NCBI GenBank assembly: GCA_964016885.1
Contig: OZ024745.1
Span: 96,534,001-96,598,000, forward strand
Length of the DNA stretch: 64,000 bases
From: Eledone cirrhosa
Lineage: Eukaryota
Direction of reading: 5' to 3'
Under the pieces are notes generated by a model. The model was given only the letters and a program-made list of their open reading frames with translations, did not search any database and had not been told where the DNA came from. Position numbers and translations under genes: made by a program. Below are positions 16,864 to 51,147 of this stretch, piece after piece (within the stretch, counting starts at the first letter, position 1; every line of letters begins with the position of its first letter).

Positions 16864-16897
16864 GTGGTCTTTCCCATCTTTTCCACTCCATTTAAAC

Positions 16898-19800
16898 ATG
16901 ACCTCACTCAGAATAGGCAGCATAAATGCGCGTGCCTTGGGGTCGTCATGGAAGCAGGGCCACCTGCTCAACGATCTCAGGTCACTAAACATAGATGTAG
17001 TGGCCATCAGCGAGAGAAGAATCTCCGAAGCACGGGCCTTCTCACCGACTTTCGGTGGCTACGATGTGTACGCATCTCCCAGCCGCCCTGGATCGGGGGG
17101 AGGAGTTGCTGTGCTTTTTCGGAGAGGCTTGGACCTCGCCATACGGGACATCTTCCTGGACCCAGAGGTAAGTTGGTGTTGCTGGAGGTGACCAGCGGAG
17201 ACGGGCAAGCTTTCAGGCTAGTGGCCGTCTATTCCCCGACAGGAGCAGGGCAGCCTGATTTCTTCCGGTGTCTGGAGACCTTTCTTGGAACGTTTTCTTT
17301 TTAGAGTTAGTGGGCGACTGGAATGGGATCTTAGATGCACGTTGGGACTGTGTGGGATTAGCGGATAGGGGAGGGGGGTGCAAGAGCCTCACCAACCTGC
17401 TCAGGCGTTTTGAACTGTCTGACAGGTACCGATTGTATTTCCCGAATGTGCCAATGTGGACTTGGACAAACCGTATCGGGTCATCCAGATCATATCTAGA
17501 TAGAGTATTTTGTAGGGAAATAGATAGGTCTAGCATAGGCTGTCCACAATTCAAGATAATCAGCTACACGGACCACAAATTCGTGATCTGTGTGATTGAC
17601 TTAGATAGGCTTCATAGACGAGGAACCGGCTACAGAGACCGGATTAGCGAACTAGTTAAGCGGGCGTTGACGGGGGCCATCGTCAACAACAAATGGTGGT
17701 TTGCTCTGAAAAGAGCGATTAAAATAGAGTCCATTAGGTTTAGTAAGGCTTTAGCTATAGAGAAAAATAGACCAGAGGGAGAACTAGTTAGAAAATTAGA
17801 CGAGGCGCTTAACAAAGGCATCGCAACCGACGTACTTGCGGCGAAATTGGCCCTTGACCAATTCTTCAATGCAAAGCACGAAGGCAGCGTTGTCAGAGCT
17901 AGGGTGTGTGCTCTCAGACACGAGGGGACTAAAGCCGTTCAATGGGCCCGAGTGGCGGAGGCGCGTCGTGGCAACAAAGCCACGATCCGGTCTTTGGTGG
18001 ACCACGACGGGCGCATGCTACTCGATCCCGGGCAAATGTGTGAAGCTTTTCAGCGACACTTCGCCCAGCTGTTCGGGGGCAGCGGCGAGACGAATGGAGG
18101 GATGGACTTTAGTGTCTACCTCGACGGACTGCCGCGGCTCTCGGCCACTGAGGCGGAGTGTTGCGAAAAGCCGATAACAGCCGCTGAAGTACGGGAGGCA
18201 ATGACTGGCTGCACAAGGGTTAAATCGCCTGGTTTGGATGGTCTGCCCTATGAACTTTACGCACAGATGCCAGACTTGTTCGGAGGCCTCTTGGCGGACG
18301 TCTACTGCAACTGGCAACAGAACGGGCGAATTCCCAGTTCTGTGAGCCGAGGAGCGGTGGCGCTGCTGAGAAAGGATCCGAACAAGGGGGATAACATAGA
18401 TAATTTCAGGCCCATAACTCTGCTAAACACAGAGTTCAAGATTTTGGCCAAGGTGCTAGCAAAGAGGTTGGCGCTTGTCGTTGGTGGGAGAGGCGCAGAC
18501 ATGCGCCATTCCCGACAGATCCATCCACGACAACCTCAATCTAATGCGATACATCGTGGAGAGGGTAGCTAGGGAACCTGGCACGGGTGGGTCCTTGATA
18601 AATTTAGATCAGTCGAAAGCTTTCGATAGGATCGAGCATCGTTACCTAGCGGCAGTCCTGAGGGCGGCTGGCTTTGGGCCCGTCTTCAGAGGCTGGATCG
18701 CTGCCATGCACAGCGACATCTACTCTGTGGTGAGAGTGAACGGTCACCTTTCGGAACCGTTCAACATCATGCGCTCGGTCCGCCAAGGATGTCCCCTCTC
18801 GTCCCTCTTGCACGTATTGACTCTCGAGCCATTACTGCACAAACTGGAGACGTTGAAGGGGATCCCGCGCGAACTAGGATGCGGAAGATCCGAGTCAGCC
18901 TATGCGGACGATGTCACCGTAGTGGTGTCGAACGCCAAACACATCGAGGCGATCGGCACTACACTAAGAGAATACGAAGCGGTGACAGGAGCAATGATCA
19001 ACCAGGAAAAGTCAGTGGGCCTGCAGCTCGGCACCTGGAGAGGCAGGTCCATGCCGTCCAACAGCGTCGTCGGGCGCTGGACGGACGGACCGGTTAAATT
19101 GCTAGGGGTCTGGATCGATCCGGACCTCCAGACGGACAAAAACTGGGATGAGGTGACGAGCAGGGTGTCTTCTCTCACCCAGAAATGGGCGGAGAGGAAA
19201 CTATCCCTGAAAAGTCGAGCGGAGGTGGCTAATGCGTACATCGCATCCGTCATCTACTACCGCCTGACCGTCGTACCTTGTCCTAAGCCCCGCCTGAATG
19301 CGCTGGAGCGTTTGCTCTTTCGCTTGTTGTGGAAGGGACGCGCTCCGATGGTCAGGCGGTCCATCTGCTGTCAACACCCGCTACGTGGAGGGCTGGGCAT
19401 GCCGTGGCTGATGATGCGCAGACACGCGCTCAGGCTACGACATCTCCATCTCTTCCTCGACGGGGATCAGGTGTGGTCGCCGTTTGCTAGACGCGTCTTT
19501 CCCCAGCTCGTCTCCTTGACGGAGCTGCAGAGGGAGCGCCTGGAGACTGGAATGTCTTCAGGCGCTCACAGCCCTCGACCAATCGGGCAATGTGATCGGT
19601 GGAAACTCCACCTTGGCGTTCTATAGAGGATTAGTGGAGGGGATGAGCGACGACGTATTTGGGGAAACTCTAGGCGTCGACGAAAATCAACTAGCCAATC
19701 TCTTCGGAAGAACTTTCGGGCCGGGGCCTATGGACAACTTCCAGAAATCCCTGGCCTGGCAGTGCTACCGAGGGGCTTTGCCAGTTCGGGATAAACTCTA

Positions 19801-20243
19801 CAGGTATGGAGGTGCCGTCAGCCGGGCATGTCCGAATGCGCGCAGGGAGACGAAACCGTCCTGCATGCACTCGTCCAGTGTCCGAGCATTGCTGACTTGT
19901 GGGTTTAAGTCGAACACCTGCTGCCGCGTGTAGGACGGATCCAGCTATCAGCTGAGTTCATCGTGAGGATTGCCCCGCCCTCTTCCTTTAGCCGGGAAGG
20001 GCAGGCAGTTTTTATCTGTCTGGTGGCAATGGCGAAAGTGATAGTATGGGGGACACGTTTGAAAGGGCTGAAAACGAGCACTTACCTCTTCGGTGATGCT
20101 CTGATTAACTTTTTCAAATTTCATTTGAAAAGGAAAATCAGGGTAGAGAGGAAGTGCTCTCTTCCCAGCATTTTGTTGAAAGATGGGTGAGAGAAGCATG
20201 TATGGCCCGAGTGAATGGGCCTACTCTGAGTATGTGTCTGTAA
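16898..20243 (+). pseudogene. Tx1-A ORF2 (APE endonuclease, RT, zf-RVT), multiple frameshifts
   Basis: SINARALG, GDWN, SYLDR, TDH (APE); KSPGLDG, NFRPITLLN, KAFDR, RQGCPLS, AYADD (RT). Confidence 0.93.
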
Positions 20244-20931
20244 ATTAAAGGTGGAAAACTGAGAGAGGCCACTTGCTCTGGTGGTCAGGGTCACTGTGCC
20301 TTTTTAATGGGCTTTCTCCACGAATGTCCCTCGGAAATCTCCCCCGTTTGCGGAATTTTTCATTGTTATTTTTTTGTTACATACTCTGTTTTTGTTTTTT
20401 ACACGCAGAAATGCCCATCTGTACCGTCCTGTATTGTCCTGTACTGTCCTTAATGTCTACTTTATGTAAACCCTTGTGGTTAATAAAGAAATCATTATTA
20501 TTATTATTATGTTTTTTTTTTCTCGTGCAATGGCAATACTCGATAACGAGGAGGCAGCCATCATACGTATACATACATATATATATTTGTGTGTGTGTAT
20601 GGGATATTTATAAAAAGTCTAATGCAAATTTAATTCATATATATTTTTTCAGATAGCTTACCTCTTCTATATTAAAACTATCATAAATACAAGCAAAGCA
20701 ATAACAATCTAGATATAGTGAACATTTCGATAAACTACGTATATTTCTGACTAATACATCTAATAGGAAATAACATTAAAAACTACAAAGACCGGTGAAT
20801 ATTATTGTGTACTCATATTTCGTTGCACATGTCTATGTGAAGCTTGTTTGTATGTGTGTACGTAACAATAACACAAATGAGTAAGCTTGTTTTCATTTTC
20901 ACATCTTACCAGTATCAAACATCACAGGAAC

Positions 20932-23612: not shown

Positions 23613-23851
23613 ATGTTTCTTTATTAGCCACAGGGGCACAAAAGAAGGGGACAAATACAAAGGGGGAAGTTTACATACAATAAAAACGTGTAAAATGTTA
23701 TCACAAATGGAATTTAAAAAGTTAGTCGATTTTCCCCAATAGGGGAGACAGTTTATATGGGTAACACATACCCCCGAAAAAATGTGCAACCCTCGTCTCC
23801 AGGAGTACGAAGAGTTTGTACTCCTTTCCTCCCCTCCTCCTTTTCCTCAAC

Positions 23852-26800
23852 CTACAGGCTGATATAGAGAGAAGGCCCATTCACTCGGGCCATTCTCGCC
23901 ACTTTCACCCACCTTTCATAAAACTTGCTGGGGTACAGCACCTCTCTCTCCATCCTGATTCTTCTTCTAAAGTGGTATTTGAAAAAAAGAATCAGTTGTT
24001 GGCCGGAGAGAAAGGTGTCTGATCTCAGCCCTTTCAACCTTGTCCACCATACAACCTCTTTCGCCATAGCTATCACACAAAGGAAAACCGCCTCTCCTTC
24101 GTTTTTGAAGGAGGGTGGCGGTTTGATCATGACAATGGACTCGGTGGTCAACCGGATTGGTCCCACCCGCGACAATAGTCGTTCTACATAGCCCCACAGG
24201 TGAGTGACGCCCGGGCACTGTATGAATGCGTGCGCGACGGTTTCTTCGTCTCGCACGCACCTCGGACAGATCTTTTTTGCAGGGTCCCTGCCCGGGCGCC
24301 CATGTCTGTAGGGCTTGTCTCGAACTGGTAGAGCTCCTCGGTAGCACTGCCAGGCCAGGGACTTTTGGAAGTTGTCCATCGGTCCCGGGCGGAAGGTCCT
24401 ACCGAATAGACTGGCCAGTTCATCTTCCTCTACGCCTAGAGTTTCACCGAGCGCGTCATCGTACTTGCTGCGGACCAACCCTCTATAGAATGACGAAGTG
24501 GAGTCTCCACTGATCGCCGGGTCCGCCTGCCAGAGGGCTGCGAGCGCCTGAGCACATTCGATGTGCCAGTCGCCCATTTTCCTCGGTCTTTGCTTGACCC
24601 AGGACTGCTTCTCGGTCAGCGAGACAAGTCGTGGGAAGGCTCGCCTCATGAACGGGGCCCACACCGGTTGTCCGATGAGGAATACGTAGAGATGCCGCAG
24701 CCTGAGCGCGTGTTTGCGCATCGTCAACCACGGTATCCCCAGCCCCAGTTAGAAGGTTGTTGGCAGCAGATGGATCTTCTCACCAAAGGAGCCCGCCTCT
24801 TCCAAAGGAATTGGAAGAGCGCGCGCTCCATTTTGGCGAGCGTTTTGGCTGGACAAGGCACGACGGTCAAGCGGTAGTAGATGGCGGACGCTAGAAAAGT
24901 GTTCGCCACCTCCGCTCGACCTTTCAAGGATAGTTCGCACTCGGCCCACTTCTGGGTGAGTGCAAACACCTTGGCCGTCACTTCGTTCCAGTTCTTCTCC
25001 ACCTGGAAGTCTGGGCCAAACCAGACCCCGAGCAGCTTTACCGGTCCTTCCGTCCAGCGTCCGACGACGACATCGGAAGGCATCGGTTTGCCTCTCCACG
25101 ATCTGAGTTGCAAACCGATGAACTTGTCCCGGTTCAGCTTCGCTCCTGTGAGACTTTCGTATTCCTTCAGTAAGGTGGCGACTTCCTCGATTTGCGAGGC
25201 GCTCGACACCATTACTGTCACGTCGTCAACGTAGGCCGACGCCACTTTCCGCAGTCCCGGTTCCAGAGGGATGCCCTGCAATAGCTCCAGCTTCCGTAGT
25301 AGTGGCTCGAGAGTCAGTACGTACAGAAGGGAGGAGAGAGGGCATCCCTGTCGAATGGATCGCGTAATATGGAACGGCTCCGAGAGGTAGCCGTTCACCT
25401 TGACCCTTGAGCAGATATTGCTGTTGTGCATTGCAGCAATCCAGCCCCTGAACACGGGTCCGAAGCCTGCCGCCTCGAGCACCGCATCCAGGTAACGATG
25501 GTCAACCCTATCGAAAGCCTTAGACTGATCCAAGTTGATCAGGGCCCCACCGAAGCCGGGTTTACACCCTACCCTCTCTATGATGTATCGCATGAGGTGG
25601 AGGTTGTCGTGTATGGACCTGGTCGGGATTGCGCATGTCTGCGCTTCTCCCACCAGGTTCTCGACGACAAGCGCCAGCCTCTTTGCCAACACCTTGGCCA
25701 AAATCTGTAACTCTGTGTTTAGCAGAGTTATGGGCCGGAAGTTGCCTATGTCATCCCCCTTATTCTTGTCCTTCCTGATTAGTGTAACCACGCCCCCGGT
25801 TACACAACTGGGAATTCTCCCGTTCTATTCCAGGAGACCGGAGAATAAGTCCGGCATTGCTACGTAAAATTCGTAGGGTAGACCGTCGAGACCTGGAGAT
25901 TTGCGTTTGCCGCATTGGCTCAGCGCGTCCCCTATCTCAGTGGCTGAAATCGGCTTTTCGCAGAACTTTGCCTCGCTGTCCAAGAGTTGCGGTAGGCCGT
26001 AGAGGTATGGACCGAAATTCATAGCCTCCCCCCCCCACGAACAGTTGAGCAAAGTGCCGCTGAAAAGCCGCACACATCTGCTTCGGCTCACGTATTACGC
26101 GTCCGTTTTGGTCCTTCAAAGACCGAATCGTGGACTTGTTGCCACTTTTTGCCTCCGTCACTCGGGCCCAGCTAACAGCTTTGGCTCCCTCGTTTCCCAA
26201 AAGCACGTGTTTTGCTTCTGACAACGCAGCCCTCGTGCTTTGCGTCGAAGAACTGGCCCAAGGCCGTTCTCGTTGCTAGCACGCTGGCTACGTTGCCACT
26301 TCTAATTACCTCTTCTACTTTATCTACCAGTTCCTTCTCGGTTCTATTTCTATCTAACGCTAATTCTTTACTAAAGACTATCGAGTCTAATCTAACTGCC
26401 CTCTTGAGAGAGTACCACCATCTATTGTTGACAATGGCCCCTGTCAAGTGCTGTTTAACTAAAGTGCTAATCCGTCTACTGTAGGCTTTGCTTGTCGGTA
26501 ACGACAAGTTCAGCTTCCAGTAGCCGGGTCCTTGTCTATGGGTTCTATCAAGGTTGGCCATGCAGGTCACTAGTTTGTGATCTGAATAGGCAACCATGAA
26601 CATTTGTGGGCAGCTTAACATGTCCCTATCCTTATTTCTAACTAGAACCCTATCTACGTACGATCTAGATGTTCCGCTACGATTACTCCACGTCCACAGT
26701 GGCGCAGTCGGAAAATCTAGTCGATATCTATCGGCCAAGTCAAATCGGTCGATTAACTGTTTGAGGCTGTTACACCCCTCTTTATCGGGACATGCTCCCA

Positions 26801-26875
26801 CATAGTCCCAACGTGCATCTAGGATTCCATTCCAGTCCCACGTACGTTCACACATCCAACTCTTATATTGGCCAT
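23852..26875 (-). pseudogene. Tx1-B ORF2, frameshifted, most of APE deleted
   Basis: Starts MANIRVGCVNVRG and is joined directly to DWNGILD; RT with YVDD; C-terminal CPRC..ETVAHAFIQC. Confidence 0.92.
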
Positions 26876-26912
26876 GTTGGTGCTGAAAAGTTAAAAGAGG
26901 AAAAGAGATCAC

Positions 26913-28804
26913 TCACCTCTTCGTCTCCTGGGGACCAGGCCGCACGATTTCCATGGGGGTGTTGGAGGGGTTGTCTGGATGGGTGGTGGTTTCCGGCGGG
27001 GTGGGGACGGAGATGTTTGGTGGGGTGGGGTCTGGTGAGATGGGGGTGTCTGGGGTGGGGAGACATTTGAGAAGGACGCGGTTGAGTGGTTTCACGCAGG
27101 AATTCCCCACATCCTTCTCAAATGTTTCTTTTAGGGACCTATAAGTTTGTATAGGGACCCTAATCAGTTTTAGGTTCAGTTTTTTGCTATTTTTAATAGA
27201 GTGGGCGAAAGTTTTCCCTTCGGTTTTCACCGAAGGGTCGTTCGTGATGGTCTCCATTAGTGTTTTGTTTTCAGTGTTTATGTAAGTGTAAGTGTAATTT
27301 TCTTGTGTTGTGTTTGTTTTTGTCTGTAGTTCTTGTGTGTGCTTTCGTTTTGTTGTAGGTATTTTGTTTTCAGGAGGTGGGGGTTTTGTTTGTGATGTTT
27401 TTGTTGTTTGTGTTGGTGGTTGTATGTTTGTGGTAGTGTTTGCTTGTTTTTTGCTTTTGTGATGTCTTTTCTTTCTTTTCGAGCGATGGGGTTCTCCCTC
27501 GTCTTCACTGGGTGATGGCGAGATAGCCTCATCCTTTGTATCGTCTGTGTGATTGGGGAGGGGTATGTCTTGGGGAGCTGTTGTGTCTGTATGTGATTTT
27601 GCAGTGGTTTTAGGTGGAATGGGGTTGGGTGAGACTGTGTTTGTTGTGGTTACTTTTGTGTGTTGGTGTTGTTGTTGTTGTGGTGGTGTTGGTGGTTGTG
27701 TTGTTTTGATGGGTGTCGGCAGAAGAGCCTTTTTTTATTCATTAATTTAGGACAGGAAGCCCTCAGGTGACCCCTGCTAAAGCAATGGTAACATGAAGGC
27801 CGCCTACCCTCAACCGAAAAGTTTATGTAGGTGAGTTCGTCCAGGAGTACACGTTGTGGGATCATAGCTATTCGCTCTGGGCTCATTTGCACCAGAACTT
27901 CAATGCTAGTCCCATTGAATACATCTCTGGAGGACTTTCCTACTGACAGTATTCTATCTTCATCAAAATTGATGAAGCCGCACAGTATCCACCATATGTT
28001 CACCTTTGGTGTGACACTCGTGATTCTGATCTTTTGTGTCCTTTTTCCCATGTATGTAGGGAAAAAGGTGTACAGGTTGGATACAATTGGCGACACAGAG
28101 TAATTTTGGGCCGTCAATTGATCCTTCATGAGTACCGAAATGCTCCCAAAAAGTTTGCTTCTTTGAATGAATGCAATATCATTCATTGAATTTTTGAAAA
28201 CCAGTTCAATTTCTTTCTGTGACAATTGGACTGGTTTTCGGGTAGAATTGGAAACTGTCCTAAAAACTATCGTTTTGCGAATTTCTACCGGAGAATTGAT
28301 GCTGAAAGCACCATTTTTTTCGAAAGTGACATATCTCCTAGCGTCCTTTAAAAGTTGTTCAGCATTTGTTATGTCGAGATATATCAATTCCTCCTTCTTT
28401 TGAACTTTCTCTGCAAAGGAGATTTTTGGTTTCTTTGTGGAATACGTTTTGTTGGTGTTGTCATTATTGTTGTTATTGTTGATGTTATTCTTGTTGTCAC
28501 CGATGTTGATATTATTTTCCTTGGTGTTGTTGTTATCTTTGGTGCTGGTGTTATTGGTGTTGTCTTTATTTTTTTCTTTGTTGTTGTTATCATTGTTGCT
28601 TTTATCATCATTATTGGTGTTGCTGTTATTTTTGTTGTCATTGAACTGTTTGGTGTCATTTGTGTTGTTTGGATATGAATTCGTTTTTACATTTTCATTT
28701 CGTCTTTCCATCTCTATAGTATCTAGTGAAGAAGACGTTGTTGACTGCGAGCTTTGTAGTCTTACCCCCTCTCCACCACCATTATCGTTGTTCGCAGCGT
28801 TCAT
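26913..28804 (-). pseudogene. Tx1-B ORF1 (main piece 27650-28804)
   Basis: Asn-rich N-terminus, ISFAEKV, VEGRRPSCYHCFSRGHLRASCP knuckle; frameshifted Pro/Thr-rich tail. Confidence 0.88.
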
Positions 28805-29019: not shown

Positions 29020-29026
29020 GATAGAG

Positions 29027-29065
<39 letters not shown>
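29020..29065. repeat. (GATA)n spacer between Tx1-B and Tx1-C
   Basis: About 11 GATA units. Confidence 0.95.
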
Positions 29066-29066
<1 letters not shown>

Positions 29067-32000
29067 TTCTTTATTTACCATAAAGGCATAAAAAGAAGGG
29101 ACAAATACAAAGGGGGAGTTTACATATAATCGAGTAAAAAGGGTGTAACATGAAAATAATCGAAAATAACCTCAAAAGGGAGGGGACGTGATGGGGGTTG
29201 CACACACCCCCGAAAAAGTGTGCAATCCTTTGCCCGGGGAGCACATGGAGAAGGTGCTCCCCTCTCCTTTACTTCTTTACCTACAGGATGGTATACAGAG
29301 AAGGCCCATTTACACGAGCCATTCTCGCCACTATCACCCACCTTTCATAAAACTGCCTGTGGCCAAGCACCTCTCTCTCCATTCTTATCCTTCTTCCGAA
29401 GTGATATCGGAAGAAGTAGACCAGACTATGGCCAGAGAGGAAGTTGCCTGACCTCAGACCTTTCAATCGTGTCCACCAAACAACCTCTTTCAACATGGCT
29501 ATTACGCACAGAAAAACCGCCTTTGCTTCCTTTGTGAAGAGGGGAGGCGGTTTGATTGTCATCACGGACTCGGCTGTCAATTTAATCGGCGCCACCCGCG
29601 ACAGCAGTTGTTCGGCGTAGCCCCACAGATCAGCCACGCCCGGACATTGCACCAATGCGTGCGCCACGGTTTCTTCGTGACGCACGCATCTAGGGCAAAT
29701 CTTTTTTGAGGGATCCCTGCCCGGGCGCCCGTGTCTGTAGAGCCTCTCTCGAACGGGTAGAGCCCCTCGGTAGCACTGCCAGGCCAGTGACTTCTGGAAG
29801 TTGTCCATTGGTCCTGGGCCGAAAGTCCTACCGAACAGGCTGGCCAGTTCGTCTTCTTCCATGTCCAGCGACTCTCCAAGGGTGTCATCGCCCCTGCTAG
29901 CCACCAGCCCTCTATAGAATGATGAGGTGGATTCTCCACCGATGGCCCGGCCCGCTTGCCAGAGAGCCCTGAGCGCCTGAGCACACTCAGTGTGCCAGTC
30001 TCCCAGTTTTCCGGATCTTTGCTTGACCCAGGACTGTAGCTCGGTGAGTGAGACGAGTCTCGGAAAGGCTCGTTTCACGAACGGAGCCCACACCGGTTGA
30101 CCAGTGAGGAATACCTGTAGGTGCCGTAGCCTTAATGCGTGCCTACGCATCATCAACCACGGCATCCCCAGCCCTCCTTTCGAAGGTTGTTGGCAGCAGA
30201 TGGATCTTCTCACCATAGGAGGACGCTTCTTCCAAAGAAATTGGAAGAGCATGCGTTCCATGGTGGTGAGTGTTTCCTTAGGGCAAGGCACGACAGTCAG
30301 GCGGTAGTAAGTGACGGACGCTATGTAAATGTTCGCCACCTCCGCCCGGCCTTTTAGGGACAGCTTACACTTGGCCCATTTCTGGGTTAGTGCAAACACC
30401 TTGTTCGTAACCTCGTTCCAGTTCTTTTCCACCTGGAGGTCCGGTCCAAACCAGACCCCAAGCAACTTTACCGGGCCCTCCGTCCAGTGTCCGACGACAC
30501 CATCGGGAGGCATCGGTCTGCCTCTCCACGTTCCGAGTTGCAGCCCGATGGATTTTTCCCGGTTCAGTTTCGCTCCTGACAACCTTTCGTACTCCTCCAG
30601 TAAGGTACCGATCGCCTCGATCTCCGAGTCGGTTGATACCATTACTGTTACGTCATCGGCGTAGGCCGACACCGCTTTGCTCAATCCTGGTTCCAGGGGG
30701 ATACCCTGCAACAACTCCAACTTCCTCAGTAAAGGCTCGAGAGTCAATACGTACAGAAGGGAGGAGAGAGGGCACCCCTGTCGAATGGATCGTGTGATTT
30801 CGAACGGCTTCGAAAGGTAGCCGTTCACCTTGATCCTAGAACAGATGTGGTTGCTATGTAGGGCAGTGATCCAGCCTCTGAAAACAGGACCGAACCCAGC
30901 CGCCGCTAGCACCGCATCCAGGTAACCATGGTCGACCCTATCGAAGGCCTTAGACTGATCCAAGTTGATCAGGGCCCCACCGAAGCCGGGTTTGTTGCCA
31001 ACCCTCTCTATGATGTATCGCATGAGGTGGAGGTTATCGTGAATGGACCTGGATGGGATAGCACATGTCTGCGCATCTCCCACCAGGCCACCCACGACAA
31101 GCGCCAACCTCTTTGCTAACACCTTGGCCAAAATCTTTAACTCTGTGTTTAGCAGGGTTATGGGCCGAAAATTATTTATACTATCCCCCTTGTTCTCGTC
31201 CTTCCTCACCAGCGTGACTACGCCCTTGGCTACAGAACAAGGAATTCTCCCGTTCTGCTGCCAATTGCAGTAGACCGCTTCGAGGAGTTCGGAGAAGAAG
31301 ACCGGCATTGCTAAATAAAGTTCGTAAGGTATACCATCGAGACCTGGAGATTTGCGTCTGCTGCATTGGCTCAGCGCATCTCCGATCTCATCAGCCGAGA
31401 TTGGTCCCTCGCAGGACTCCGCCTCTTTGTTCGAGAGACGCGGCAGGCCGTCGAGGTATGGACCGAAATCCACGCCCCGGCCCGGACCCTCGCCTCCCCC
31501 GAACAATCGGGCAAAGTGCTTTTGAAAGGCCTCGCACATCTGCTTAGGCTCCCGGATCACTCGTCCATCTTCGTCTTGCAACGACCGGATGGTGGATCGA
31601 TTTCCACTTTTAGCTTCTGTCACGCGGGCCCATCCAACGGCTTTGGCCCCCTCATTACCTAGAGCACGTATTTTACTTCGAATGACGCAGCCTTCATGCT
31701 TTGCATCGAAAAACTGGTTCAAGGCCGTCCTCGATGCCAGCACTCTGGCCACATCTTCGCTCTTGATTGCCTCTTCTAATTTACCTGTTAATTCTTTCTC
31801 GTTTCTATTCCTATTGGCAGCTAACATCTTGCTATAACTTATTGATTCTGTTCTAATCTCTCTTTTGAGAGATGCCCACCATCGGTTGTTGACGATTGCA
31901 CCCGTCAACCTCTCCTTAACTAATCTGCTAATCCGGTTTCTGTAAGTCTCTTTTGCCGGTAAAGACAAATTAAGTTTCCAGTAACCGGGACCCTGTCTAT

Positions 32001-32107
32001 GTGTTTTCTCGAGATTGACCACGCAGGTCACTAATTTGTGATCCGTGTAGCCAACCGTGCGCATTTCTGGACAGCTTAATATGTCCCTATCCTTACTTCT
32101 AACTAAG

Positions 32108-32109: not shown

Positions 32110-32157
<48 letters not shown>
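32110..32157. repeat. (GATA)n spacer between Tx1-C and Tx1-D
   Basis: 12 GATA units. Confidence 0.95.
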
Positions 32158-32158
<1 letters not shown>

Positions 32159-32389
32159 ATTTCTATTTATTTGCCACGAGGGCACAAAAGAAGGGGACAT
32201 TTACACAGTGGGGGAGTTTACATAAATCGAGTAAAGAAAAAAGGAATAACAATAATAATATAACAATAAAAAGTCCTCAAAAGGGAGGGGGCGTGTTGGG
32301 GATTGCACATACCCCCGAAAAGTGTGCAACTCTTTTCGCGGGGGAAGCCCAGAGAGGAGGCGCTCCCCCCTTCCTCTTCACTTCTTCAC

Positions 32390-35300
32390 CTACAGAACAA
32401 TGTAGAGAGAAGGCCCATTTACACGGGCCATTCTCGCTTCTTTCACCCACCTTTCATAAAACTGTCTGGGACCAAGCACTTCTCTCTCCATCCTGATTCT
32501 TCTTCCGAAGTGGTATCGGAAGAAGTAAACCAGGTGGTGGCCGGAGAGAAAGTCACCCGACCTCAGACCTTTCAGGCGCGTCCACCACACAACCTCTTTC
32601 ATCATGGCTATTACGCACAGAAAGACCGCCTCTGCTTCATTTCTGAAGGGAGGAGGCGGCTTGATGTTCACCACAGACTCGGCGGTTAATCGAATCGGCG
32701 CCACACGCGACAGCAGTCGTTCGACGTAGCCCCACAGATCGGCAACGCCTGGGCAGTGTACCAGTGCATGCGCAACGGTTTCCTCGTCGCGCACGCATCT
32801 GGGACAGATCTTTTTCGCGGGATCCCTGCCCGGGCGCCCGTGTCTGTAGAGCTTTTCTCGAACGGGCAGAGCCCCCCGGTAACACTGCCAGGCTAGGGAC
32901 CTCTGGAAGTTGTCCATGGGTCCCGGGCCGAAAGTTCTACCGAACAGGCTGGCCAGTTCGTCCTCCTCCATGCCTAGCGACTCTCCAAGGGTGTCGTCGC
33001 CCCTGCTAGCCACCAACCCTCTATAGAATGTCGAGGTGGATTCTCCACTGACAGTCGGGTCCGCTTGCCAGATAGCCGTGAGCGCCTGGGCACACTCGGT
33101 GTGCCAGTTGCCCAGTTTTCTCGGTCTTTGCTTCACCCAGGATTGCAGTTCGGTGAGCGAGACGAGCTGTGGGAAGGCTCGCCTCACAAACGGGGCCCAC
33201 ACCAGCTGACCGTTGAGGAATACCTGTAGATGCCGTAGCCTCAATGCGTACCTACGCATCAACAGCCACGGCATACCCAGCCCTCCTTTCGAAGGGTGCT
33301 GGCAGCAGATGGATCTCCTCACCATGGGAGGCCGCTTCTTCCAGAGGAACTGGAAGAGCATGCGTTCCATGATGGTGAGCTTTTCCTTGGGGCAAGGCAC
33401 GACGGTCAGGCGGTAGTAGATGACGGACGCTATGTAAGCGTTCGTCACCTCCGCCCGACCTTTCAGTGATAGTTTGCACTTGGCCCACTTCTGGGTCAGC
33501 GCAAACACCCTGCTCGTCACCTCGCCCCAATTCTTCTCCACCTGGAGGTCCGGTCCGAACCAGACCCCGAGCAGCTTCACCGGGCCCTCCGTCCACCGCC
33601 CGACGACACCGTCTAACGGCATCGGTTTGCCCCTCCACGTTCCGAGTTGCAAACCGACTGACTTGTCCTGGTTCAGCTTAGCCCCCGTCAGCCTTTCGTA
33701 TTCCTCCAGTAGGGTGGCGATCGCCCCGATTTCCGAGGCGTCCGCCACCATTACTGTTACGTCGTCGGCATAGGCCGAGACCGCTTTGTGCAATCCCGGT
33801 TCCAGGGGTATGCCCCGCAGCAACTCCAACTTCCGCAGCAGTGGCTCGAGAGTCAATACGTACAGAAGGGAGGAGAGGGGGCACCCCTGTCTGATGGATC
33901 GGGTGATTTGAAACGGCTCCGAGAGGTAGCCGTTTACTTTAATCCTAGAGTAGATGTTGCCACTGTGCATGGCAGAAATCCAGCCCCTGAAAACGAGTCC
34001 GAAGCCCGCCGCCGCTAGCACCGCATCCAGGTAACCATGGTCGACCCTATCGAACGCCTTAGATTGATCCAAGTTGATCAGGGCCCCACCAAAGCCGGGT
34101 TCGTAGCCAACCCTCTCTATGATGTATCGCATGAGGTGGAGGTTGTCGTGAATGGACCTGGACGGGATATCGCATGTCTGCGCGTCTCCCACCAAACCAC
34201 CCACCACAAGCGCCAACCTCTTCGCCAACACCTTGGCCAAAATCTGTAACTCTGCATTCAGCAGAGTTATGGGCCTAAAGTTACTTAAGTCGTCCCCCTT
34301 GCTCTCGTCCTTCCTCACTAGCGTGACCACGCCCTTGGTCACAGAACAGGGAATTCTCCCGTTCTGTTGCCAGTTGCAATAGACAGCCTCGAGGAGTTCG
34401 GAGAACAAGACCGGCATAGCTAAATAAAGTTCGTATGGTAGACCATCGAGACCCGGGGATTTGCGTCTGCTGCATTGGCTGAGCGCTTCCCCGATTTCAG
34501 TGGCTGTGATTGGCCTTTCGCAGCACTCCGCTTCGCCGCTCGAAAGACGCGGTAGACCGTCGAGGTATGGACCGAAGTCCACATCCCCGTCTGGCCCCCC
34601 GCCACCTCCGAACAGTCGAGCAAAGTGCCTTTGAAAGGTCTCGCACATTCGCTCAGGTTCAAGGATCACCCGTCCATCCTGGTCTCGCAAAGACCGAATG
34701 GTGGATTTAATCCCACTCTTGGCTTCTGTCACGCGGGCCCAGTTAACAGCTTTGGTCCCCTCGTTTCCTAAAGCATGTATTTTACTTCGGACAACGCAGC
34801 CTTCGTGCTTCGCGTCAAAGAACTGGCTCAATGCCGTTCTCGTCGCTAACACTCTGGCTACGTCTCCGCTCCTAATCGCCTCTTCTAGTTTATCTGTTAA
34901 CTCCCTTTCCTTCCTATTTCTATTCGCCGCTAGTTCCTTACTGTAACCTATCGAACTTACTCTAATCTCTCTCTTTAGAGATACCCACCACCTACTGTTG
35001 ACGATCGCTCCCGTCAACCGCATCTTAACTAAGCTACTAATCCGGTTTCTGTAATCTTTCTTTGTCGGTAAGGACAAGTTCATCTTCCAGTAACCGGGAC
35101 CCTGTCTATGCGTTCTATCAAGGTTGACCACGCAGGTCACTAATTTGTGATCTGAATAGCCAACCATGATCAGTTCTGGACAACTAAATACGTCCCTATC
35201 CTTACTCCTAACCAAAAACCTATCTAGGTACGATCTAGATTGTCCACTGCGGTTTGCCCAGGTCCAGGTTGGCGCAGTTGGACAATCTAGTCGAAATCTA

Positions 35301-35829
35301 TCGACCAGGTCGAATCGATCGAGTAACCCCTTGAGGCTGCTACACCCCCCTCTATCGGGACATGCCCCTGCATAGTCCCAACGCGCATCTAGGATTCCAT
35401 TCCAGTCCCCCACTAAAAGCAGGGAACGCGACGTTCCTAGAAAAGTCTCCAGACGCTGGAAGAAGTCGGCTCTTTCCGCCCCGAAGGGAGCATAAAGACC
35501 GACCAGTCTGAAAGCCCCGCCTTCACCGCCTCCGACGTCCAGCACCAGTAATCGACCCCCCGGGTCCGAGTGAACAATCTGTACGTCGAGAGTCAGACGT
35601 TTATCCAGCAGTACGGCAACTCCCCCCCCCCACCTCCGGGTTGACAGAGAGATGCGTGCATCTCAAAGTCATCGAAGGCGGGCGCCAGCTGTCTCACGCT
35701 GCTGATCCGACTCTCGCAAACAACCATCACATCTATACTTTGTGACCTGAGGTCACTTAGAAGCTTTGCTTGCTTCCAAGCTGAGCCCAGGCCACGCGCG
35801 TTCAAACAGCCAACTCTCAATTGATCTAT
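32390..35829 (-). CDS. Tx1-D ORF2 (APE-RT-CCHC); 1051-aa open frame 32390-35545 plus N-terminus 35593-35829 across a poly-G frameshift
   Basis: CLNARGLG, VCESR, GDWN, SYLDR, SDH; all RT motifs; start appears as ATA; 1-nt shift in the G run near 35622-35631. Confidence 0.92.
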
Positions 35830-36334
35830 TTTGGTGTTGAAAGTGAAGAAAGAAAAGCACTTACCTCTCCGGGTTGCGTAATTTCCATGGCATCAGGTGT
35901 GTTGGGTGGAGGGATGTTTTGTGGTGGTGTGGGGGTACACGTGTGTGGTGGGGTTGGGGTATTTGGAGTTGTGTCAGGGAGAGGAGCGGTTATGGGGAAA
36001 TCTTTCAAGAGGACGCGATTCAACGGTTTTAAACAGGGGGGGGGGCTCACGTCCCGTCTAAATTGTTCTTTTAAGGAACGATAAAGGTCCAGAGGGACCT
36101 TTATCATTTTTAAATGGGTGAAGTTCTCTGTTGAGATAAAGTTTGGCCCTTCGGTCTGCACCATAGGGTTATTGTTTATTAATTTAACCAGTTTTTTGTT
36201 TTCTTTATTTATATATGTGTATTGCAACGTTTTTTTTTGTGATGCTGTCAATGTTTCGGAGAGGGGAGGCGCAGATTTATTTTTGTTTGTTGAGGGTGGG
36301 GTGTTTTTGATTGGAGTTGGTGTTTGTGTGTGGG

Positions 36335-37693
36335 TTATTTGTGGTGTGCTGGGTGTGTGTTTTCTTTTTTTTCTTTTAACTTGTCTGAAGGCTTCTCCTC
36401 CTTCTTCTTCAGAAGTTGGGGGAAACTCTTCAGCGCTAGGTGGGAGGGACGTGTTGTGTGGTTGTTTTTTTTTGCGGGAGGGGTAGATTTGTTACTGTTT
36501 TTTTTATTATTTGTTTGGAATGGGTTTTGTGGTGGTGGTGGTAATGTTTGTGTCGTGCTTGTGGTTGGTGATGGTGGTGGTGATGTTTGTGTTGTGGTTG
36601 GTGGTGGTGATTTTTGTGTCGTGCTTGTGTTTGGTGCTGGTGGTGGTGATGTTTGTGTTGTGTTTGTGGTTGGTGGTGTCTGTATTTTGTTTGCTGTGTG
36701 TGGTATTAGTGTATTTTTGGAGGTGGGTGGTGTTGGTGTACTGTTTGTGGTGGGTGTGGGCAATAGTCCTTTTTGGGGGATACGTTTCGGGCAGTTAGCC
36801 TTAACGTGTCCCCTTTCCATGCATAAATAGCATGCTGGTCTTCTCCCCTCTACAATTATGTCTATTGGGGTAAGGTCATCCAACCAGATGCGATCCGGGA
36901 TTTGTGCTATTCTTTCGGGCCTCATTTGGACTAGTATGTCGAGGCCCATTCCCAGGAACGCATCTCCAGTTGCCTTCCCCATTGACAGCATTGTGTCTTC
37001 GCCCATATCAATGAAGCCAGCAATAGCCCACCAGAAGTCCATTGTGGGCAGCATTGTTTTTACTTTTACTCTCTGTGTTCTTCTACCCATGTAGGAGGGA
37101 TAGAAGCTATATGTTGTCGATGAGAGTGGGCTTAGGGGAAGCTTCTCCGCCGTTTCTTTGTCTCTTGTTAGGACCGAAATGCTGCCATAGAGTCGGTCCT
37201 TTCGTATGAAGAGAATATTCTTCATATAGTCTTTTAGGACTAACTCTATTTCCATTTGGCTGGGCTGTGCTGGCTTTCTTGTCTGGTTCAGTATAGTTCT
37301 GTAGAGAACTGTGTTTTCTGCTCTGGCTTTCTTGAATTCTGGGGGGGGGGGGGAGTTAATGGAAAACATTCCGTTCTCCCCCAAAACAATGTGTTTCTTT
37401 GCTTCAGCCAGTTTTTCTCTGGCGGCAGTTAGGTCAATTGGTGTGTATGTAATGGATTGTTTTGTTTTCTGGGCGAAAGTTGCCCTGTCGTTATTTGTAT
37501 TATTTTCTGTTTGTTTGTTTTCTGTTTGCTCATTTTCCTTAACATTTGTTTTTTCCTTTTCTTTGTTTGTTTCAATGTCTAATTTTGTTGTAATTATTTT
37601 TTGTTCTTCAGACTTGGGGGGCGTGGCAGAGCTAATGGCAGACATGTCTGCCATCTTTTCCGCCATGCTGCCAAGAAAGAAATTTTTCGGCAA
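36335..37693 (-). CDS. Tx1-D ORF1 nucleic-acid-binding protein (continues 35826-36251 after a frameshift)
   Basis: ATFAQK, VEGRRPACYLCMERGHVKANCP zinc knuckle, TTQTSPPP repeats; homologous to B ORF1. Confidence 0.9.
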   Translation of the reverse strand: MPKNFFLGSMAEKMADMSAISSATPPKSEEQKIITTKLDIETNKEKEKTNVKENEQTENKQTENNTNNDRATFAQKTKQSITYTPIDLTAAREKLAEAKKHIVLGENGMFSINSPPPPEFKKARAENTVLYRTILNQTRKPAQPSQMEIELVLKDYMKNILFIRKDRLYGSISVLTRDKETAEKLPLSPLSSTTYSFYPSYMGRRTQRVKVKTMLPTMDFWWAIAGFIDMGEDTMLSMGKATGDAFLGMGLDILVQMRPERIAQIPDRIWLDDLTPIDIIVEGRRPACYLCMERGHVKANCPKRIPQKGLLPTPTTNSTPTPPTSKNTLIPHTANKIQTPPTTNTTQTSPPPAPNTSTTQKSPPPTTTQTSPPPSPTTSTTQTLPPPPQNPFQTNNKKNSNKSTPPAKKNNHTTRPSHLALKSFPQLLKKKEEKPSDKLKEKKENTHPAHHK

Positions 37694-38081
37694 AAATAGA
37701 TATTTATTTTACCCCCTAAAAAGGGGGTAAATGCAAAAATGTTTCCCTAAATAACAGGGGTTAGTGTTCCAAATGTGTTGCACTAAAAAATTTATCCGGT
37801 ACTTACAATAGTAAGGGTAAATCCCGATGGAATAGCGGAGCCGATGCGAAGCGTGTCTTACTCTATCAAGATAGATAGATAGATAGATAAGTCCAGTAAA
37901 TCATGTCCACAGGGATGATAGTATGAACGAACATTATAGTGAATTTACGATCAATCAGACGTTTAGTGTAAATGTTCTACAATATTTTAATCCTCTAGAC
38001 GGTTTTAAACGATTTGCTATGCGATAAAGAAATAAATGAATAATTAAATAAATAAAATAAAATAAATAACATAAATAGAGA

Positions 38082-38279: not shown

Positions 38280-39700
38280 GGTTTCATTTATTGGCCACAA
38301 GGGCCGAGATATAGGGGACAATACAAAAGAGAGGGACAGTGGGGGTTTACATATACAACGTGTAAACAATATGAATAACAATAACAAAATAACAATAAAA
38401 ATACAAGGAAAATTCCCCAATAGGGGGGATAACCACCCAGGGTTCACTCAGGTACCCCACCAATCCTGAACCATCCGACGCTTCGAGAGCACCCGGGAAG
38501 GGCACCCCCTCTCCTCCTCAAATTCACCCACCTACAGGCACATGGTCAGAGTAGGCCCACTCACACGGGCCATTCTCGCCACATCCATCCACATTTTAGC
38601 AAATGGGGGGGGGGGGGGAGGCATCACTTCTCTCTCCACCCTCACCTTCCTTTCCAGGAAAAATTTGAAGAAGTTGATGAAGGATTGGCCGAAGAGAAAA
38701 GTGTCTGCCTTCAGTCCTTTCAACCCGGTCCACCATACAACCTCTTTCGTTACAGCCACCAGACAGAGGAAAATTGCTTACTCTTCCTGGCCAAAAGAAG
38801 GCGGCGGGTCGATCTTCACTATGGACTCGGCCGATAGCCGGATCCGTTCTAAACACTACAACAGCTGTTCGACATAACTCCACAAGTCAGTAATGCACGG
38901 ACATTGGACGAGTGCGTGCAGAACGGTTTCGTCGCTTTGCGCGCATCCCGGCCAGGTCTGTCTGACAGCCCTTCCGTTTCTGTTTAGTTTATCTCGAACC
39001 GGCAGTGTCCCCCCGCCCCGATAGCACTGCCAAGCGAGGGATTTCTGGAAGTTATTCATCGTCCCCGACTCGAAAGTCCTCCTGAACAGACTGGTCAGTT
39101 CGACCTCGTCGACGCCCAGAGCCTCCCCGAGTGCGTCGTCGCACTTGCCCGCCACTAATTCTCTATAGAACTCGAGAGTGGAAGTTCCACTGACCGCATT
39201 GCCCGCCTGGTAGAGGGCGATGAGTGCCTGGCAACATTCCAAATGCCAGTCACCTAGTCTTGGTCTCTTCTTAACCCAGGACTGGAGCACAGTCAAAGAG
39301 ACGAGCTGCAGAAAGACCCGTCTGATAAACGGCGACCACACCTGTTCACCGTTTAGACAGAATATCTGGAGATGCCGCAGCCTCAGCGCATGTCTGCGCA
39401 TCATTAGCCACAGCATTCCAGCCCTCCGTGTAGAGGGTGCTGGCAGTAGATGGACCGCCTCACCAACAGGACCCGTCCCCTCCACTGGAATTTGAAGAGG
39501 ATCCGCATTCGCTACCTCCGCCCAACCTTTCAGTGATAGCTTCCTCGCAGCCCATTTATGAGTGAGACTGGCAACCTTGCTCGTTACCTCGTCCAAATTC
39601 TTATCCACCTAGAGGTCTGTTTCGAACCAAACCTCGAGCAACTTTACTGGTGCGTCAGTCCATCGCCCAACGACGCTGTTGGACGGCATGGACTTGCCTA
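38280..39700 (-). mobile_element. L1-Tx1 LINE copy E, 3' fragment of the A/F subfamily
   Basis: Homologous to the C-terminal part of A ORF2 (NFQKSLAWQCYRG, ARVSGPTLTMCL); AATAAATGAAACCATTATT end; 5' junction next to taatagtaataataa. Confidence 0.9.
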
Positions 39701-41775: not shown

Positions 41776-41866
<91 letters not shown>

Positions 41867-41990: not shown

Positions 41991-42032
<42 letters not shown>

Positions 42033-42035
<3 letters not shown>

Positions 42036-49319: not shown

Positions 49320-51147
49320 TCACTTACCTTGATCGTGTGGTGAAGGGACAGTAGAACCGTCCCTTTCGCTGGTCATGGGTGTTTCCAAGAGGATGTCAGT
49401 GTATATCCTCTTGGTAACCGACCCCCTGAAATCTCCAGCTGCGTTGGGGAATTTTTGTTTTAAAGGTTTGTACTGTTCTATTGAGATTTCGATGATGCTT
49501 ATGTTTGTCGGGAGAGTTCTTGGTGTTGGTGGAGTGTAGTAGTTTTTTTCTGTGATGTCTGTGTGCTGCTTTATATATTGTATCAGTTCTTTTTTTGCCA
49601 TGTTTATGGCTGTGTACTTTTTGGGGGGAGGGGGGATTTTGTTGCTGTTTTCTTCTTGTTGCTGTTTGGTGTGTGTGTTTTGTTGTTTGCGTTGTTGGTG
49701 TTTTTGATGATGCTGGTGGTGGTGTTGTTGCAAGTTTCCTTGCTGCCTTTACCCCTCTTTGTATGCCTTCGCTTTTGGAGGGTGAATCTAAGGGTTTTTT
49801 GTTTTTTGTTTTTTGTTTTTTGTGGCAGACCGTTTGCCACTTCACTCCCGCCTCAAACTCCATGTCGGATTATGTGGTGTCTGGGAGGGCTATGTGCTCC
49901 ACGGCTGTTGGTGGTGGTAGTGGAGCCCTCTTCGGCAATTTTGTTGCTGGTGTAGCTACTTCAAATGTAGCTATTGGTGTTGCCGCCACTGATGATGCTG
50001 CGTTAGTTGTCCGTGGCCTTGGTACGGGTGCTACGGACGTTGCCCTCCTACTCACCGTGGAAGGGGCTTCTGCGTTTGTTTCCTGTCTATGATATCGGGG
50101 ATAGCGTCGATACATTCATGGTCAGTTTGTATAAGCATTTGCATGCCTATACATGACCAGTTCTCTCTCCCTATTTTTTCTACTTGTAGCATGGTCGTCC
50201 TGTTCTCGATTCCAGCAAGGACAGACGCGGCCAGCCAAGGTATGGGCACGTCGGGTGGGACCTGGGTCACTTTGACCCTCACAATTTTCTGCCCGCAGTA
50301 GGAGGGCACCAAGACTATCTCCTCACTCTTTAGGGTTTCCAAAGAGTGAGACTTTGCTCCTGGGGGTGGCTAAAAGTACGTCTACTGTGGCGTACTTTCT
50401 GCCTCGGGTGATGTGGGTTTTGCGTGCCCAGACGCACCCCAAGGCCTTTTGGATTTGAGCCTCCGTGGCTCTCTCCACCCGATGTGAGATTTTGCTTACG
50501 GTGCGGTAAGTCACCGTCCGTAGCTGCTGGTCCTTGAAAAAATCGGGTGGAGGTTTCAGGGAGACTCTATTTGCGCTTCTTGTCACCATGCCCCTTGCGA
50601 CTGCCATCTCCTCCTCTGTGACTAACACTGTCTCGATATTTCGGGCGACACCTGCAAAAGAAGTGGTCCCTTTTTCAGCAGCACTACTATTGCTGCCGCT
50701 ACTGGTCTTACAGGTATCGGTGTCATTGTTGTTGTTTTCGTTGGTACAGTTGTTGGTGTTGTTGTTTTTGTTTTCGTTGATACTGTTGCTGTTGTTACTG
50801 TTATTGTGGCTGTTGTTATTATTGTTGTTTTTGTTGATACTGTTCCTACTATTATTGTTGTTGTGGCTGATGTTATTGTCATTGTTATTGTCGTTCTCGA
50901 CCTTACCTCTGTTATTTTTGTTGTTGCTGTTGTTATTGATGGTGTTGTTGTTGTTGTTGGTGTTATTGTTGGTGTTGTTTGTGTTAGAACTATTTGTAAA
51001 TTTTAAATCTGTAACAATCTTCTTTTCCTTTGTAATATTTTCGTTTATATTTACCTGCGCTGGAACGCTGTCTTGTTGACATGCTGATAAAGTCTCCCTT
51101 TCTCTGTGTTGTCTGACAGCGCTCTCTCTCTTTCTTGTGTTATCCAT
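49320..51147 (-). pseudogene. Tx1-F ORF1, frameshifted, knuckle apparently deleted
   Basis: Asn-rich N-terminus; QKALGCVWARK and SYCGQKIVRVKVT match A ORF1. Confidence 0.85.

What the first reader, a model, noticed from the sequence alone, without database searches (positions are those of the whole stretch)
32390..35870. Tx1 ORF2 appears bracketed by splice sites: a LINE whose entire ORF2 may be an optional intron
Seen: all four copies retaining the ORF1/ORF2 junction have a consensus donor AG|GTRAGT followed by a pyrimidine tract just upstream of the ORF2 start. Positions are A (GT at 16860, +, 38 nt before ATG), B (26916, -, 41 nt), D (35864, -, 35 nt) and F (49327, -, 40 nt), although surrounding ORF1 sequence is highly diverged. 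ORF1 ends at or just past the donor. At the far end the ORF2 stop TAG lies in an acceptor-like context: GGGCCTTCTCTCTACATTGTTCTGTAG|GT in D (32390), and ...CTGTAG|GT in B (23852), C (29281), E (38532) and G (53963), followed by purine-rich GAAGAA/GAGGAA enhancer-like sequence. A has TAA, with AAG|GT 7 nt later. Inference: splicing would remove ORF2 precisely and give an ORF1-only mRNA keeping the 3' UTR (D would end ...PGE|VKK*), which could set the ORF1p:ORF2p ratio. Splicing to a gag-only RNA is known for plant copia elements; I do not know of this arrangement in L1/Tx1 LINEs.
Basis: partly seen in the sequence, partly recalled or inferred. Interest (0 to 1): 0.9.

Follow-up and report, generated by a model that had tools for sequence, protein, structure and literature searches.

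The report
U1 site and zipper bracket ORF2
These abundant jumping genes keep a strong splice-donor signal where their first gene ends, but the apparent acceptor 3.4 kb away is better explained as one strand of a predicted, co-evolving RNA zipper that joins the start and the end of the enzyme gene, so the pair likely controls the uncut RNA rather than routinely cutting the enzyme gene out; no spliced RNA or spliced DNA copy was found.

Summary
The motifs are at the stated places, except that copy D has ATA, not ATG. The donor is real and selected: six positions are invariant across 14 families (68-93% identical) although ORF1 crosses it in three reading phases, and it is the best U1 match in 13 of 14 elements. 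The acceptor is weak: its conservation equals that of synonymous sites, it is lost in family A, and 7 of 13 others have an AG just upstream. No precisely spliced genomic copy was found (0 against 3,869 intact donors; a weak test), and no junction in four runs. It buries the acceptor and usually the ORF2 AUG. Best reading: zipper plus U1 site regulate the full-length RNA; ORF2-removing splicing stays possible (about 0.28; early stops match donor phase in 9 of 14). The scan noted donor and zipper before on other DNA of this genome.

The parts
32110..37869 (-). Copy D, full-length Tx1-like LINE of a young family, flanked by (ATCT)n repeats
   Evidence: at least 379 copies with the exact donor flank, 461 with the 5' UTR flank
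37801..37806 (-). Second donor-like hexamer in the D 5' UTR; in D a pyrimidine tract and AG (37668) precede the ORF1 ATG (37666)
   Evidence: 0 spliced copies against 461 intact
35826..37666 (-). D ORF1 (frameshifted in this copy; 626-aa open frame in L031), weak CCHC knuckle, A-rich 3' half
35859..35867 (-). D ORF1-end 5' splice-site (U1) motif, GT at 35864; ORF1 reads through it in phase 0
35820..35858 (-). D zipper, 5' strand (pyrimidine spacer plus first ORF2 codons), predicted
   Evidence: (-33.0 kcal/mol)
35827..35829 (-). ATA at the position of the ORF2 ATG of sister families, overlapping the ORF1 stop TAG
32390..35829 (-). D ORF2: APE endonuclease, RT, C-terminal zinc motif (one frameshift in this copy; 1,146 aa open in L041)
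32362..32401 (-). D zipper, 3' strand (last ORF2 codons, stop TAG at 32390-32392 = the proposed acceptor, first 28 nt of 3' UTR), predicted
32166..32171 (-). AATAAA near the D 3' end, followed by (ATCT)n
16857..16865 (+). Copy A donor motif; ORF1 stop TAA at +2..+4 (phase 2)
16866..16909 (+). Copy A zipper 5' strand, predicted
   Evidence: -32.0 kcal/mol
20228..20273 (+). Copy A ORF2 end (TAA at 20241-20243, no AG) and zipper 3' strand, predicted
26911..26919 (-). Copy B donor motif (phase 2)
26864..26909 (-). Copy B zipper 5' strand, predicted
   Evidence: -40.0 kcal/mol
23821..23866 (-). Copy B ORF2 end (TAG at 23852-23854, a CAG 9 nt upstream) and zipper 3' strand, predicted
49322..49330 (-). 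Copy F donor motif (phase 1, stop at +6..+8); this copy lacks its 3' end
29281..29283 (-). Copy C ORF2 stop TAG (5'-truncated copy)
38532..38534 (-). Copy E ORF2 stop TAG (5'-truncated copy)
53963..53965 (-). Copy G ORF2 stop TAG (5'-truncated copy)

Best explanation
ORF2 of this LINE clade is bracketed by a selected U1-type donor and a predicted 30-45-bp RNA zipper that pairs the ORF1-ORF2 spacer and ORF2 start with the ORF2 stop and 3' UTR start, and together they likely regulate the unspliced full-length RNA rather than routinely excising ORF2. Shown from sequence: frame-independent conservation of the donor; complementarity in one register with compensatory changes. Inferred: the zipper forms in vivo, loops out 3.4 kb, hides the would-be acceptor and mostly the ORF2 start, and puts the 3' end about 230 nt from the ORF1 stop, which would shield a bicistronic RNA from nonsense-mediated decay and tie ORF2 translation to ribosomes that finish ORF1 and unwind the helix. 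Inferred, least sure: U1 bound at the foot of the helix protects the nascent RNA from early 3'-end cleavage in the A-rich end of ORF1, as a retroviral donor does for an upstream poly(A) signal.
For: Donor: positions -2,-1,+1,+2,+5,+6 show 0 changes over 14 families, flanks 3-5 (30 of 140 four-fold sites are invariant); three ORF1 phases; best U1 site in 13 of 14. A second donor-like hexamer sits in the first 110 nt of 11 of 15 5' UTRs (1.9 expected), mostly without an AG before the ORF1 ATG, and D's 5' UTR intron-like stretch, whose spliced RNA could be copied in cis, gave 0 spliced against 461 intact copies. Zipper: own-partner energy -34.1 against -27.1 kcal/mol for other families' partners, 0 of 20,000 permutations; z -2.2 to -6.3 against 300 dinucleotide shuffles each; best window of about 500 in the element in 8 of 14. 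Fixed register: 180 of 280 cells paired against 85-110 when slid, 9 of 20 columns with double changes, 3 of 40,320 permutations with 8 spread families. The +1 G and stop G of the 'acceptor' pair with the CC before the AUG; family A changed C-G to U-A and family K A-U to G-C there. With local context the zipper gains 8.5-29.5 kcal/mol over separate folds and pairs stop-G/+1 with mean probability 0.84. Contigs of run X4 (kind not on record) bridge donor and acceptor unspliced. Precedents: U1 blocks premature termination in copia EVD (PMC5580714, passages), HIV-1 donor 195 nt behind a poly(A) signal (PMC3694450, passages), fold-back suppresses NMD (PMC2689704, abstract).
Against: No structure probing, RNA-end or translation data; energies ignore the cost of closing a 3.4-kb loop. 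The zipper is weak in R and R5 (-21.8, -21.9; 43 and 39 of about 500 windows as good; own partner ranks 13 of 14), and R is among the most abundant families. AUG pairing is low in R, R5 and D (0.07, 0.01, 0.32) and the donor itself is predicted only 0.35 unpaired. AATAAA upstream of the donor is not at homologous places and not above composition, and ORF2 has almost none, so a target for U1 protection is not demonstrated. Families are related, so permutation numbers overstate independence. Phase-matched early stops (9 of 14) are what splicing predicts and are only partly explained by pairing. Unspliced contigs are expected under every model.
Confidence: 0.5

Rival explanations
1. ORF2 is an optional intron: the donor splices to the AG of the ORF2 stop to give an ORF1-only mRNA with the 3' UTR. 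The zipper would then be the switch that protects the genomic RNA when closed or brings the sites close.
For: Strong donor; TAG in 13 of 14 families; stop within 3 codons in the donor-set phase in 9 of 14 against 8 of 28 other phases; A-type ends keep an AG 7 nt downstream in three variants; Drosophila copia has a 3-kb intron of this type (PMC5580714, passages).
Against: TAG retention equals synonymous background; clean YAG in only 6 of 14; A, B, B2, G, R5 would gain 20-95 residues; the AG lies inside the predicted helix; 0 spliced copies against 379 and 3,490, 0 for K/E types without a denominator, versus about 2% SpIREs in human L1 (PMC5860796, section 7), though an ORF1-only RNA needs ORF2p in trans, so this test is weak; none of the 15 listed joints of 57 is this junction.
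Confidence: 0.28
2. The donor is spliced, but to other partners (flanking host or neighbouring-copy acceptors, or a site inside ORF2 followed by early polyadenylation as in plant copia).
For: Donor-only conservation; tandem copies 5.7-5.9 kb apart; each family has 35-51 clean YAG sites downstream.
Against: No synonymous-constraint dip inside ORF2 in 50-codon windows (sparse data); no shared AATAAA in ORF2; AGs further down the 3' UTR are mostly GAG/AAG and not shared.
Confidence: 0.1
3. A 28-59-nt micro-intron removes the ORF1 stop and fuses ORF1 to ORF2.
For: An in-frame AG lies within 75 nt of the donor in 13 of 14 families.
Against: Absent in D; mostly AAG/GAG supplied by the conserved R-V/I-G codons; tract abuts the donor, not the AG; such RNA would copy in cis, yet none of the 200 listed junctions (by eye) lacks the spacer precisely.
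Confidence: 0.04
4. By-product: the donor is an Arg codon plus stop codon plus inherited bases, with no U1 role.
For: +2..+4 vary only among TAA, TAG, TGA and are the ORF1 stop in 9 of 14 families; an A subfamily has C at -2, a synonymous Arg change; the donor is predicted to be partly paired.
Against: Motif kept in phases 1 and 0, +5/+6 invariant where non-coding, best U1 site in 13 of 14, second such motif in 5' UTRs.
Confidence: 0.08

Closest known systems
Tx1-clade microsatellite-targeting LINEs (Kibi, Koshi; PMC4494074, passages seen)
   Same: Two ORFs, APE endonuclease + RT + C-terminal zinc motif, insertion into simple repeats ((ATCT)n or (ATT)n here).
   Different: The passages seen mention no splice donor or long-range pairing; clade membership by RT tree with named references could not be tested.
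Ty1/copia subgenomic gag splicing (Arabidopsis EVD, Drosophila copia; PMC5580714, passages seen)
   Same: A conserved U1 site at the end of the structural-protein gene, better conserved than its acceptor; U1 also blocks premature termination.
   Different: LTR elements with one gag-pol frame and a demonstrated spliced RNA; here a LINE with separate ORFs, no spliced RNA seen, and a zipper over the acceptor.
Human L1 splicing: SpIREs and SpORF2 (PMC5860796, abstract, section 7, part 1 of 2 of Discussion; PMC2896524, passages)
   Same: A conserved, rarely used donor in a LINE RNA.
   Different: The human donor is in the 5' UTR, is attributed to a RUNX3 site, removes 5' UTR/ORF1 and leaves about 2% spliced copies; here the main donor is at the ORF1 stop and no spliced copy was found.
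HIV-1 major splice donor suppressing an upstream poly(A) signal (PMC3694450, passages)
   Same: Splicing-independent U1 action near a poly(A) signal, dependent on distance and RNA fold.
   Different: There the poly(A) signal is fixed; here upstream AATAAA are scattered and at the composition-expected rate.
NMD escape by 3' fold-back (PMC2689704, abstract) or by PTBP1 bound near a stop codon (PMC4764554, abstract)
   Same: A stop codon with a very long downstream region, followed by a CU-rich tract that can pair with the 3' end.
   Different: In the abstracts seen these concern human cells and retroviral or cellular mRNAs, not a LINE zipper; the NMD role here is inferred.
SART1 and L1 termination-reinitiation (PMC5972666, PMC3894237, PMC11485995, passages)
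   Same: ORF2 start close behind the ORF1 stop, RNA structure involved (SART1), AUG dispensable (L1), as family D suggests.
   Different: The SART1 structure is described as lying downstream of the stop-start site; here the partner strand is 3.4 kb away at the ORF2 stop.

Membership tests
L1/Tx1-type APE non-LTR retrotransposon | ORF2 with APE endonuclease, RT and C-terminal zinc motif | tested here: met
   PF03372, PF00078, PF13966 (last below cut-off); best solved relative human L1 ORF2p, E 1e-50
L1/Tx1-type APE non-LTR retrotransposon | Separate upstream ORF1 with CCHC knuckle (recalled as typical of Tx1) | tested here: inconclusive
   626-aa frame in L031; zf-CCHC E 0.019, below cut-off
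Tx1 clade | Target preference for repeats such as microsatellites | tested here: met
   (ATCT)n or (ATT)n at element ends
Tx1 clade | RT phylogeny with named Tx1 references | not testable with these tools
U2-type intron (ORF2) | 5' splice site complementary to U1 | tested here: met
   (U1 complement recalled)
U2-type intron (ORF2) | 3' splice site: pyrimidine tract and first AG, conserved | tested here: not met
   clean YAG in 6 of 14 families, no AG in A, conservation at synonymous level
U2-type intron (ORF2) | Branch point | not tested
   no host-trained model available
U2-type intron (ORF2) | Spliced RNA observed | tested here: inconclusive
   contigs only, kind not on record, 15 of 57 joints shown, none matching
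SpIRE / ORF1-only (HAL1-like) processed copies | Genomic copy with the exact splice junction | tested here: not met
   0 vs 379, 0 vs 3,490, 0, 0 vs 461 for the 5' UTR; family A, F and R5 junctions not searched
Copia-type subgenomic gag system | LTR element with gag-pol in one frame | tested here: not met
   non-LTR, two ORFs; works like it at most
Long-range RNA duplex | Complementarity with compensatory changes in a fixed register | tested here: met
Long-range RNA duplex | Formation in vivo | not testable with these tools
   needs probing or cross-linking

The most novel reading that the evidence does not exclude
A LINE with an RNA switch: the zipper gates a U1 donor and an acceptor built into the ORF2 stop, so the open form splices out the entire ORF2 to give an ORF1-only mRNA with a phase-matched stop, and the closed form is the protected genomic RNA that also makes ORF2p.
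Probability: 0.25. Interest if true: 0.85.

Novelty: new variant of a known kind. Interest (0 to 1): 0.62.

Why it matters
How LINEs set the ORF1p:ORF2p ratio, translate a second ORF and keep a bicistronic RNA alive is still open (PMC3894237, PMC5972666, passages). Here a large, recently active clade offers two sharply defined, mutable cis-elements (a frame-independent U1 site and a covarying start-to-stop zipper) and a natural AUG-less family, so the question becomes directly testable with a few point mutants. My paper searches (listings only for most) showed no report of a donor at the ORF1 stop of an L1/Tx1 LINE; none of these searches was aimed at long-range pairing, so I make no claim that the zipper is absent from print.

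Tried and rejected
RNA data: no RNA holder listed (four runs, one study, kind not on record); this is no evidence either way. In one search run X4 is small (88 million letters) and its ORF1 contigs are deeper (131, 337) than its ORF2 contigs (13-38), unlike X1-X3; the tool states that contig depth cannot rank parts of a gene and X4's kind is unknown, so I did not use it. Local hairpin across the ORF2 stop: z below -2 in only 1 of 14 families, rejected in favour of the long-range duplex. Conserved upstream poly(A) signal: AATAAA at -400..-200 in 10 of 14 copies (two of them, B and K2, have foreign DNA upstream), non-homologous and near the shuffle rate. Distant homologs: of 80 metagenome loci (22-54% best-segment identity) 49 gave an ORF2 start; none reached the U1 score 8.5 within 100 nt upstream, three reached 8.0, against 8.0-9.5 at the junction here; 22 had both ends, and 3 of 22 had duplex z below -2 (mean -0.43), against 14 of 14 here with slightly different window lengths. 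DNA of the roughly 40%-identical relatives (P0002-P0016) could not be reached, so the earlier notes' claim that a distant relative keeps the donor is untested by me. Viral contigs: no relative. A search of this genome with a P0004 N-terminus returned only known families in its 30 loci. PMC2911113 and PMC13282606 (passages) held nothing on this arrangement; Alisch et al. 2006 was not held. Family L200 (no full ORF2) and copies without a found C-terminus were left out of the 14-family set (29 of 40 junctions had both ends; one per family kept). The host organism was not determined; 'octopus' is a recalled guess also made in earlier notes. Supplements were not read.
Full report
Setting. The window lies in a 3.0-Gb animal genome. 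[quoted passage not shown] ORF2 has APE, RT and a C-terminal zinc motif and its best solved relative is human L1 ORF2p. The Tx1 label fits the microsatellite targeting (PMC4494074, passages) but could not be tested by a tree with named references.

Observation. All nine coordinates are right. One correction: D has ATA, not ATG, in the window and in all 50 loci read; its ORF1 runs through the donor for 12 codons to a TAG that overlaps the ATA.

The donor is under selection as RNA. Patterns on the ORF2 N-terminus that do not contain the donor matched 6,296 and 6,122 places; about 90 and 92 of the 100 listed in each have G|GTRRGT 25-52 nt upstream of the ORF2 start (by eye; distances). I kept one copy of each of 14 families with both ends (68-93% identical in ORF2). 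Positions -2, -1, +1, +2, +5, +6 show no change on the tree, +3/+4 vary only between A and G, and -8..-3, +7 and +8 change 3-5 times; only 30 of 140 four-fold sites are invariant. The obvious confound, that +2..+4 is the ORF1 stop, holds for 9 families, but F and the three K families read it in phase 1 and D in phase 0 after small indels just upstream. By pairing energy with the recalled U1 5' end it is the best of 265-331 GT sites in 13 of 14 elements. A second donor-like hexamer lies in the first 110 nt of 11 of 15 5' UTRs (1.9 expected; some of these UTRs are related), usually with no AG before the ORF1 ATG. None of 49 ORF2 starts of distant homologs scored as well.

The acceptor is not. 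TAG changes once on the tree; 15 of 32 two-fold purine synonymous sites do as well. Family A has TAA, F has TAG followed by T, and 7 of the 13 families with TAG carry another AG 8-9 nt upstream, leaving 6 of 14 clean; D happens to be the best. These are few independent events.

Direct traces of splicing. No genomic copy has the precise junction: 0 against 379 intact D donors, 0 against 3,490 for R, B, S, N and G types, 0 for K/E types (no denominator); A, F and R5 were not searched. Human L1 has 131 of 6,609 (PMC5860796, section 7), but an ORF1-only RNA needs ORF2p in trans, so this is weak. A stronger internal control is D's 5' UTR intron-like stretch, whose spliced RNA would keep both ORFs: 0 against 461 (one search also shows that the IUPAC end letter works). 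In one search, contigs of run X4 (kind not on record) bridge the donor (35644-35990) and the stop (32165-32758) unspliced; none of the 15 listed joints of 57 is the predicted one.

The zipper. The stretch from donor +7 to ORF2 codon 4 pairs with the last four codons, stop and first 40 nt of the 3' UTR at -21.8 to -44.0 kcal/mol; own partners average -34.1 against -27.1 (0 of 20,000 permutations), z is -2.2 to -6.3 against dinucleotide shuffles, and the site is the best of about 500 windows in 8 of 14 elements. In a fixed register 180 of 280 cells pair (85-110 when slid by 1-3), 9 of 20 columns have double changes, and with 8 spread families 3 of 40,320 permutations reach the observed value. 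The changes are telling: the G after the stop pairs with C at -5 of the AUG and family A has U-A; the next pair is A-U but G-C in K; S and D changed a C-G to A-U in coding sequence at both ends of the protein. So the TAG|GT context, the purine-rich 'enhancer' and the pyrimidine tract behind the donor are two strands of one helix. Co-folded with flanks, it gains 8.5-29.5 kcal/mol over separate folds and pairs the stop-G/+1 at 0.84 and the AUG region at 0.72 on average; the donor is 0.35 unpaired. It is weak in R and R5. Only 3 of 22 distant homologs reach z below -2.

Mechanism. Shown: a selected U1-type site and a covarying complementarity that begins 7 nt behind it. Inferred: the helix loops out ORF2, hides the acceptor, and brings the poly(A) signal (187-251 nt behind the stop in 13 of 14) next to the ORF1 stop, the geometry that suppresses NMD in PMC2689704 (abstract); terminating ribosomes would open it and restart on ORF2. 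Family D supports restart without AUG: shared ORF2 substitutions are 9 non-synonymous to 13 synonymous against 177 to 83 for private ones (Fisher p 0.017), and L1 ORF2 is described as AUG-independent (PMC11485995, passage). U1 would protect the nascent RNA as in EVD (PMC5580714) or HIV-1 (PMC3694450); I could not show a conserved target signal. I give this 0.50, precise ORF2 removal 0.28, other splice partners 0.10, by-product 0.08, micro-intron fusion 0.04. The first two are not exclusive: the helix could gate a minor spliced form.

Novelty. A known kind of element with cis-elements I did not find described in ten paper searches, none of which targeted long-range pairing. The scan has noted the donor (several notes) and the zipper (one note) on other pieces of this genome; those notes are not independent evidence. 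Verdict: observation partly confirmed, interpretation partly supported, new variant of a known kind, interest 0.62.

Noticed in passing
window 35827-35829 (-); L001-L050: Family D lacks the ORF2 ATG (ATA overlapping the ORF1 stop) yet its ORF2 is open in several copies and shared substitutions indicate purifying selection.
   Followed up: partly
window 37668-37806 (-): Intron-shaped stretch in the D 5' UTR (donor, branch-like CTAAC, pyrimidine tract, AG right before the ORF1 ATG); never spliced in 461 copies; donor-like hexamer in 11 of 15 5' UTRs.
   Followed up: partly
L198, L199, L208 (B), L195, L210 (K), L197 (K2), L200: These families have a tract plus AG directly before the ORF2 ATG, which could serve an ORF2-only spliced RNA like human SpORF2; other families lack it.
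   Followed up: no
L192, L204, L207; L199, L209: 5' UTR/ORF1 starts appear swapped between families: a B-type ORF2 (L207) has an R/G-type 5' UTR, and B and S share one.
   Followed up: no
window 23567-35870 and G000:C1:423365218-423418069: Copies sit head-to-tail in each other's repeat tails, including a run of ten K-family matches 5.8 kb apart; one clade uses (ATCT)n, the A/F/K clade (ATT)n.
   Followed up: no
window 20945-21984: A perfect 542-nt tandem duplication.
   Followed up: no
window 2537-2739, 4413-4668, 10834-11272, 41768-42046, 51579-51764: Palindromic stretches of 190-440 nt, MITE-like, some with copies elsewhere in the window.
   Followed up: no
window 12716-13294: Tandem array with a period of about 29 nt.
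   Followed up: no
window 13797-14597 (+): Fragment with a weak RT hit, apparently another retroelement.
   Followed up: no
L200: Copy of a further family with about 2 kb of ORF2 deleted but both zipper strands and a GTAATT donor retained (-37.3 kcal/mol).
   Followed up: partly
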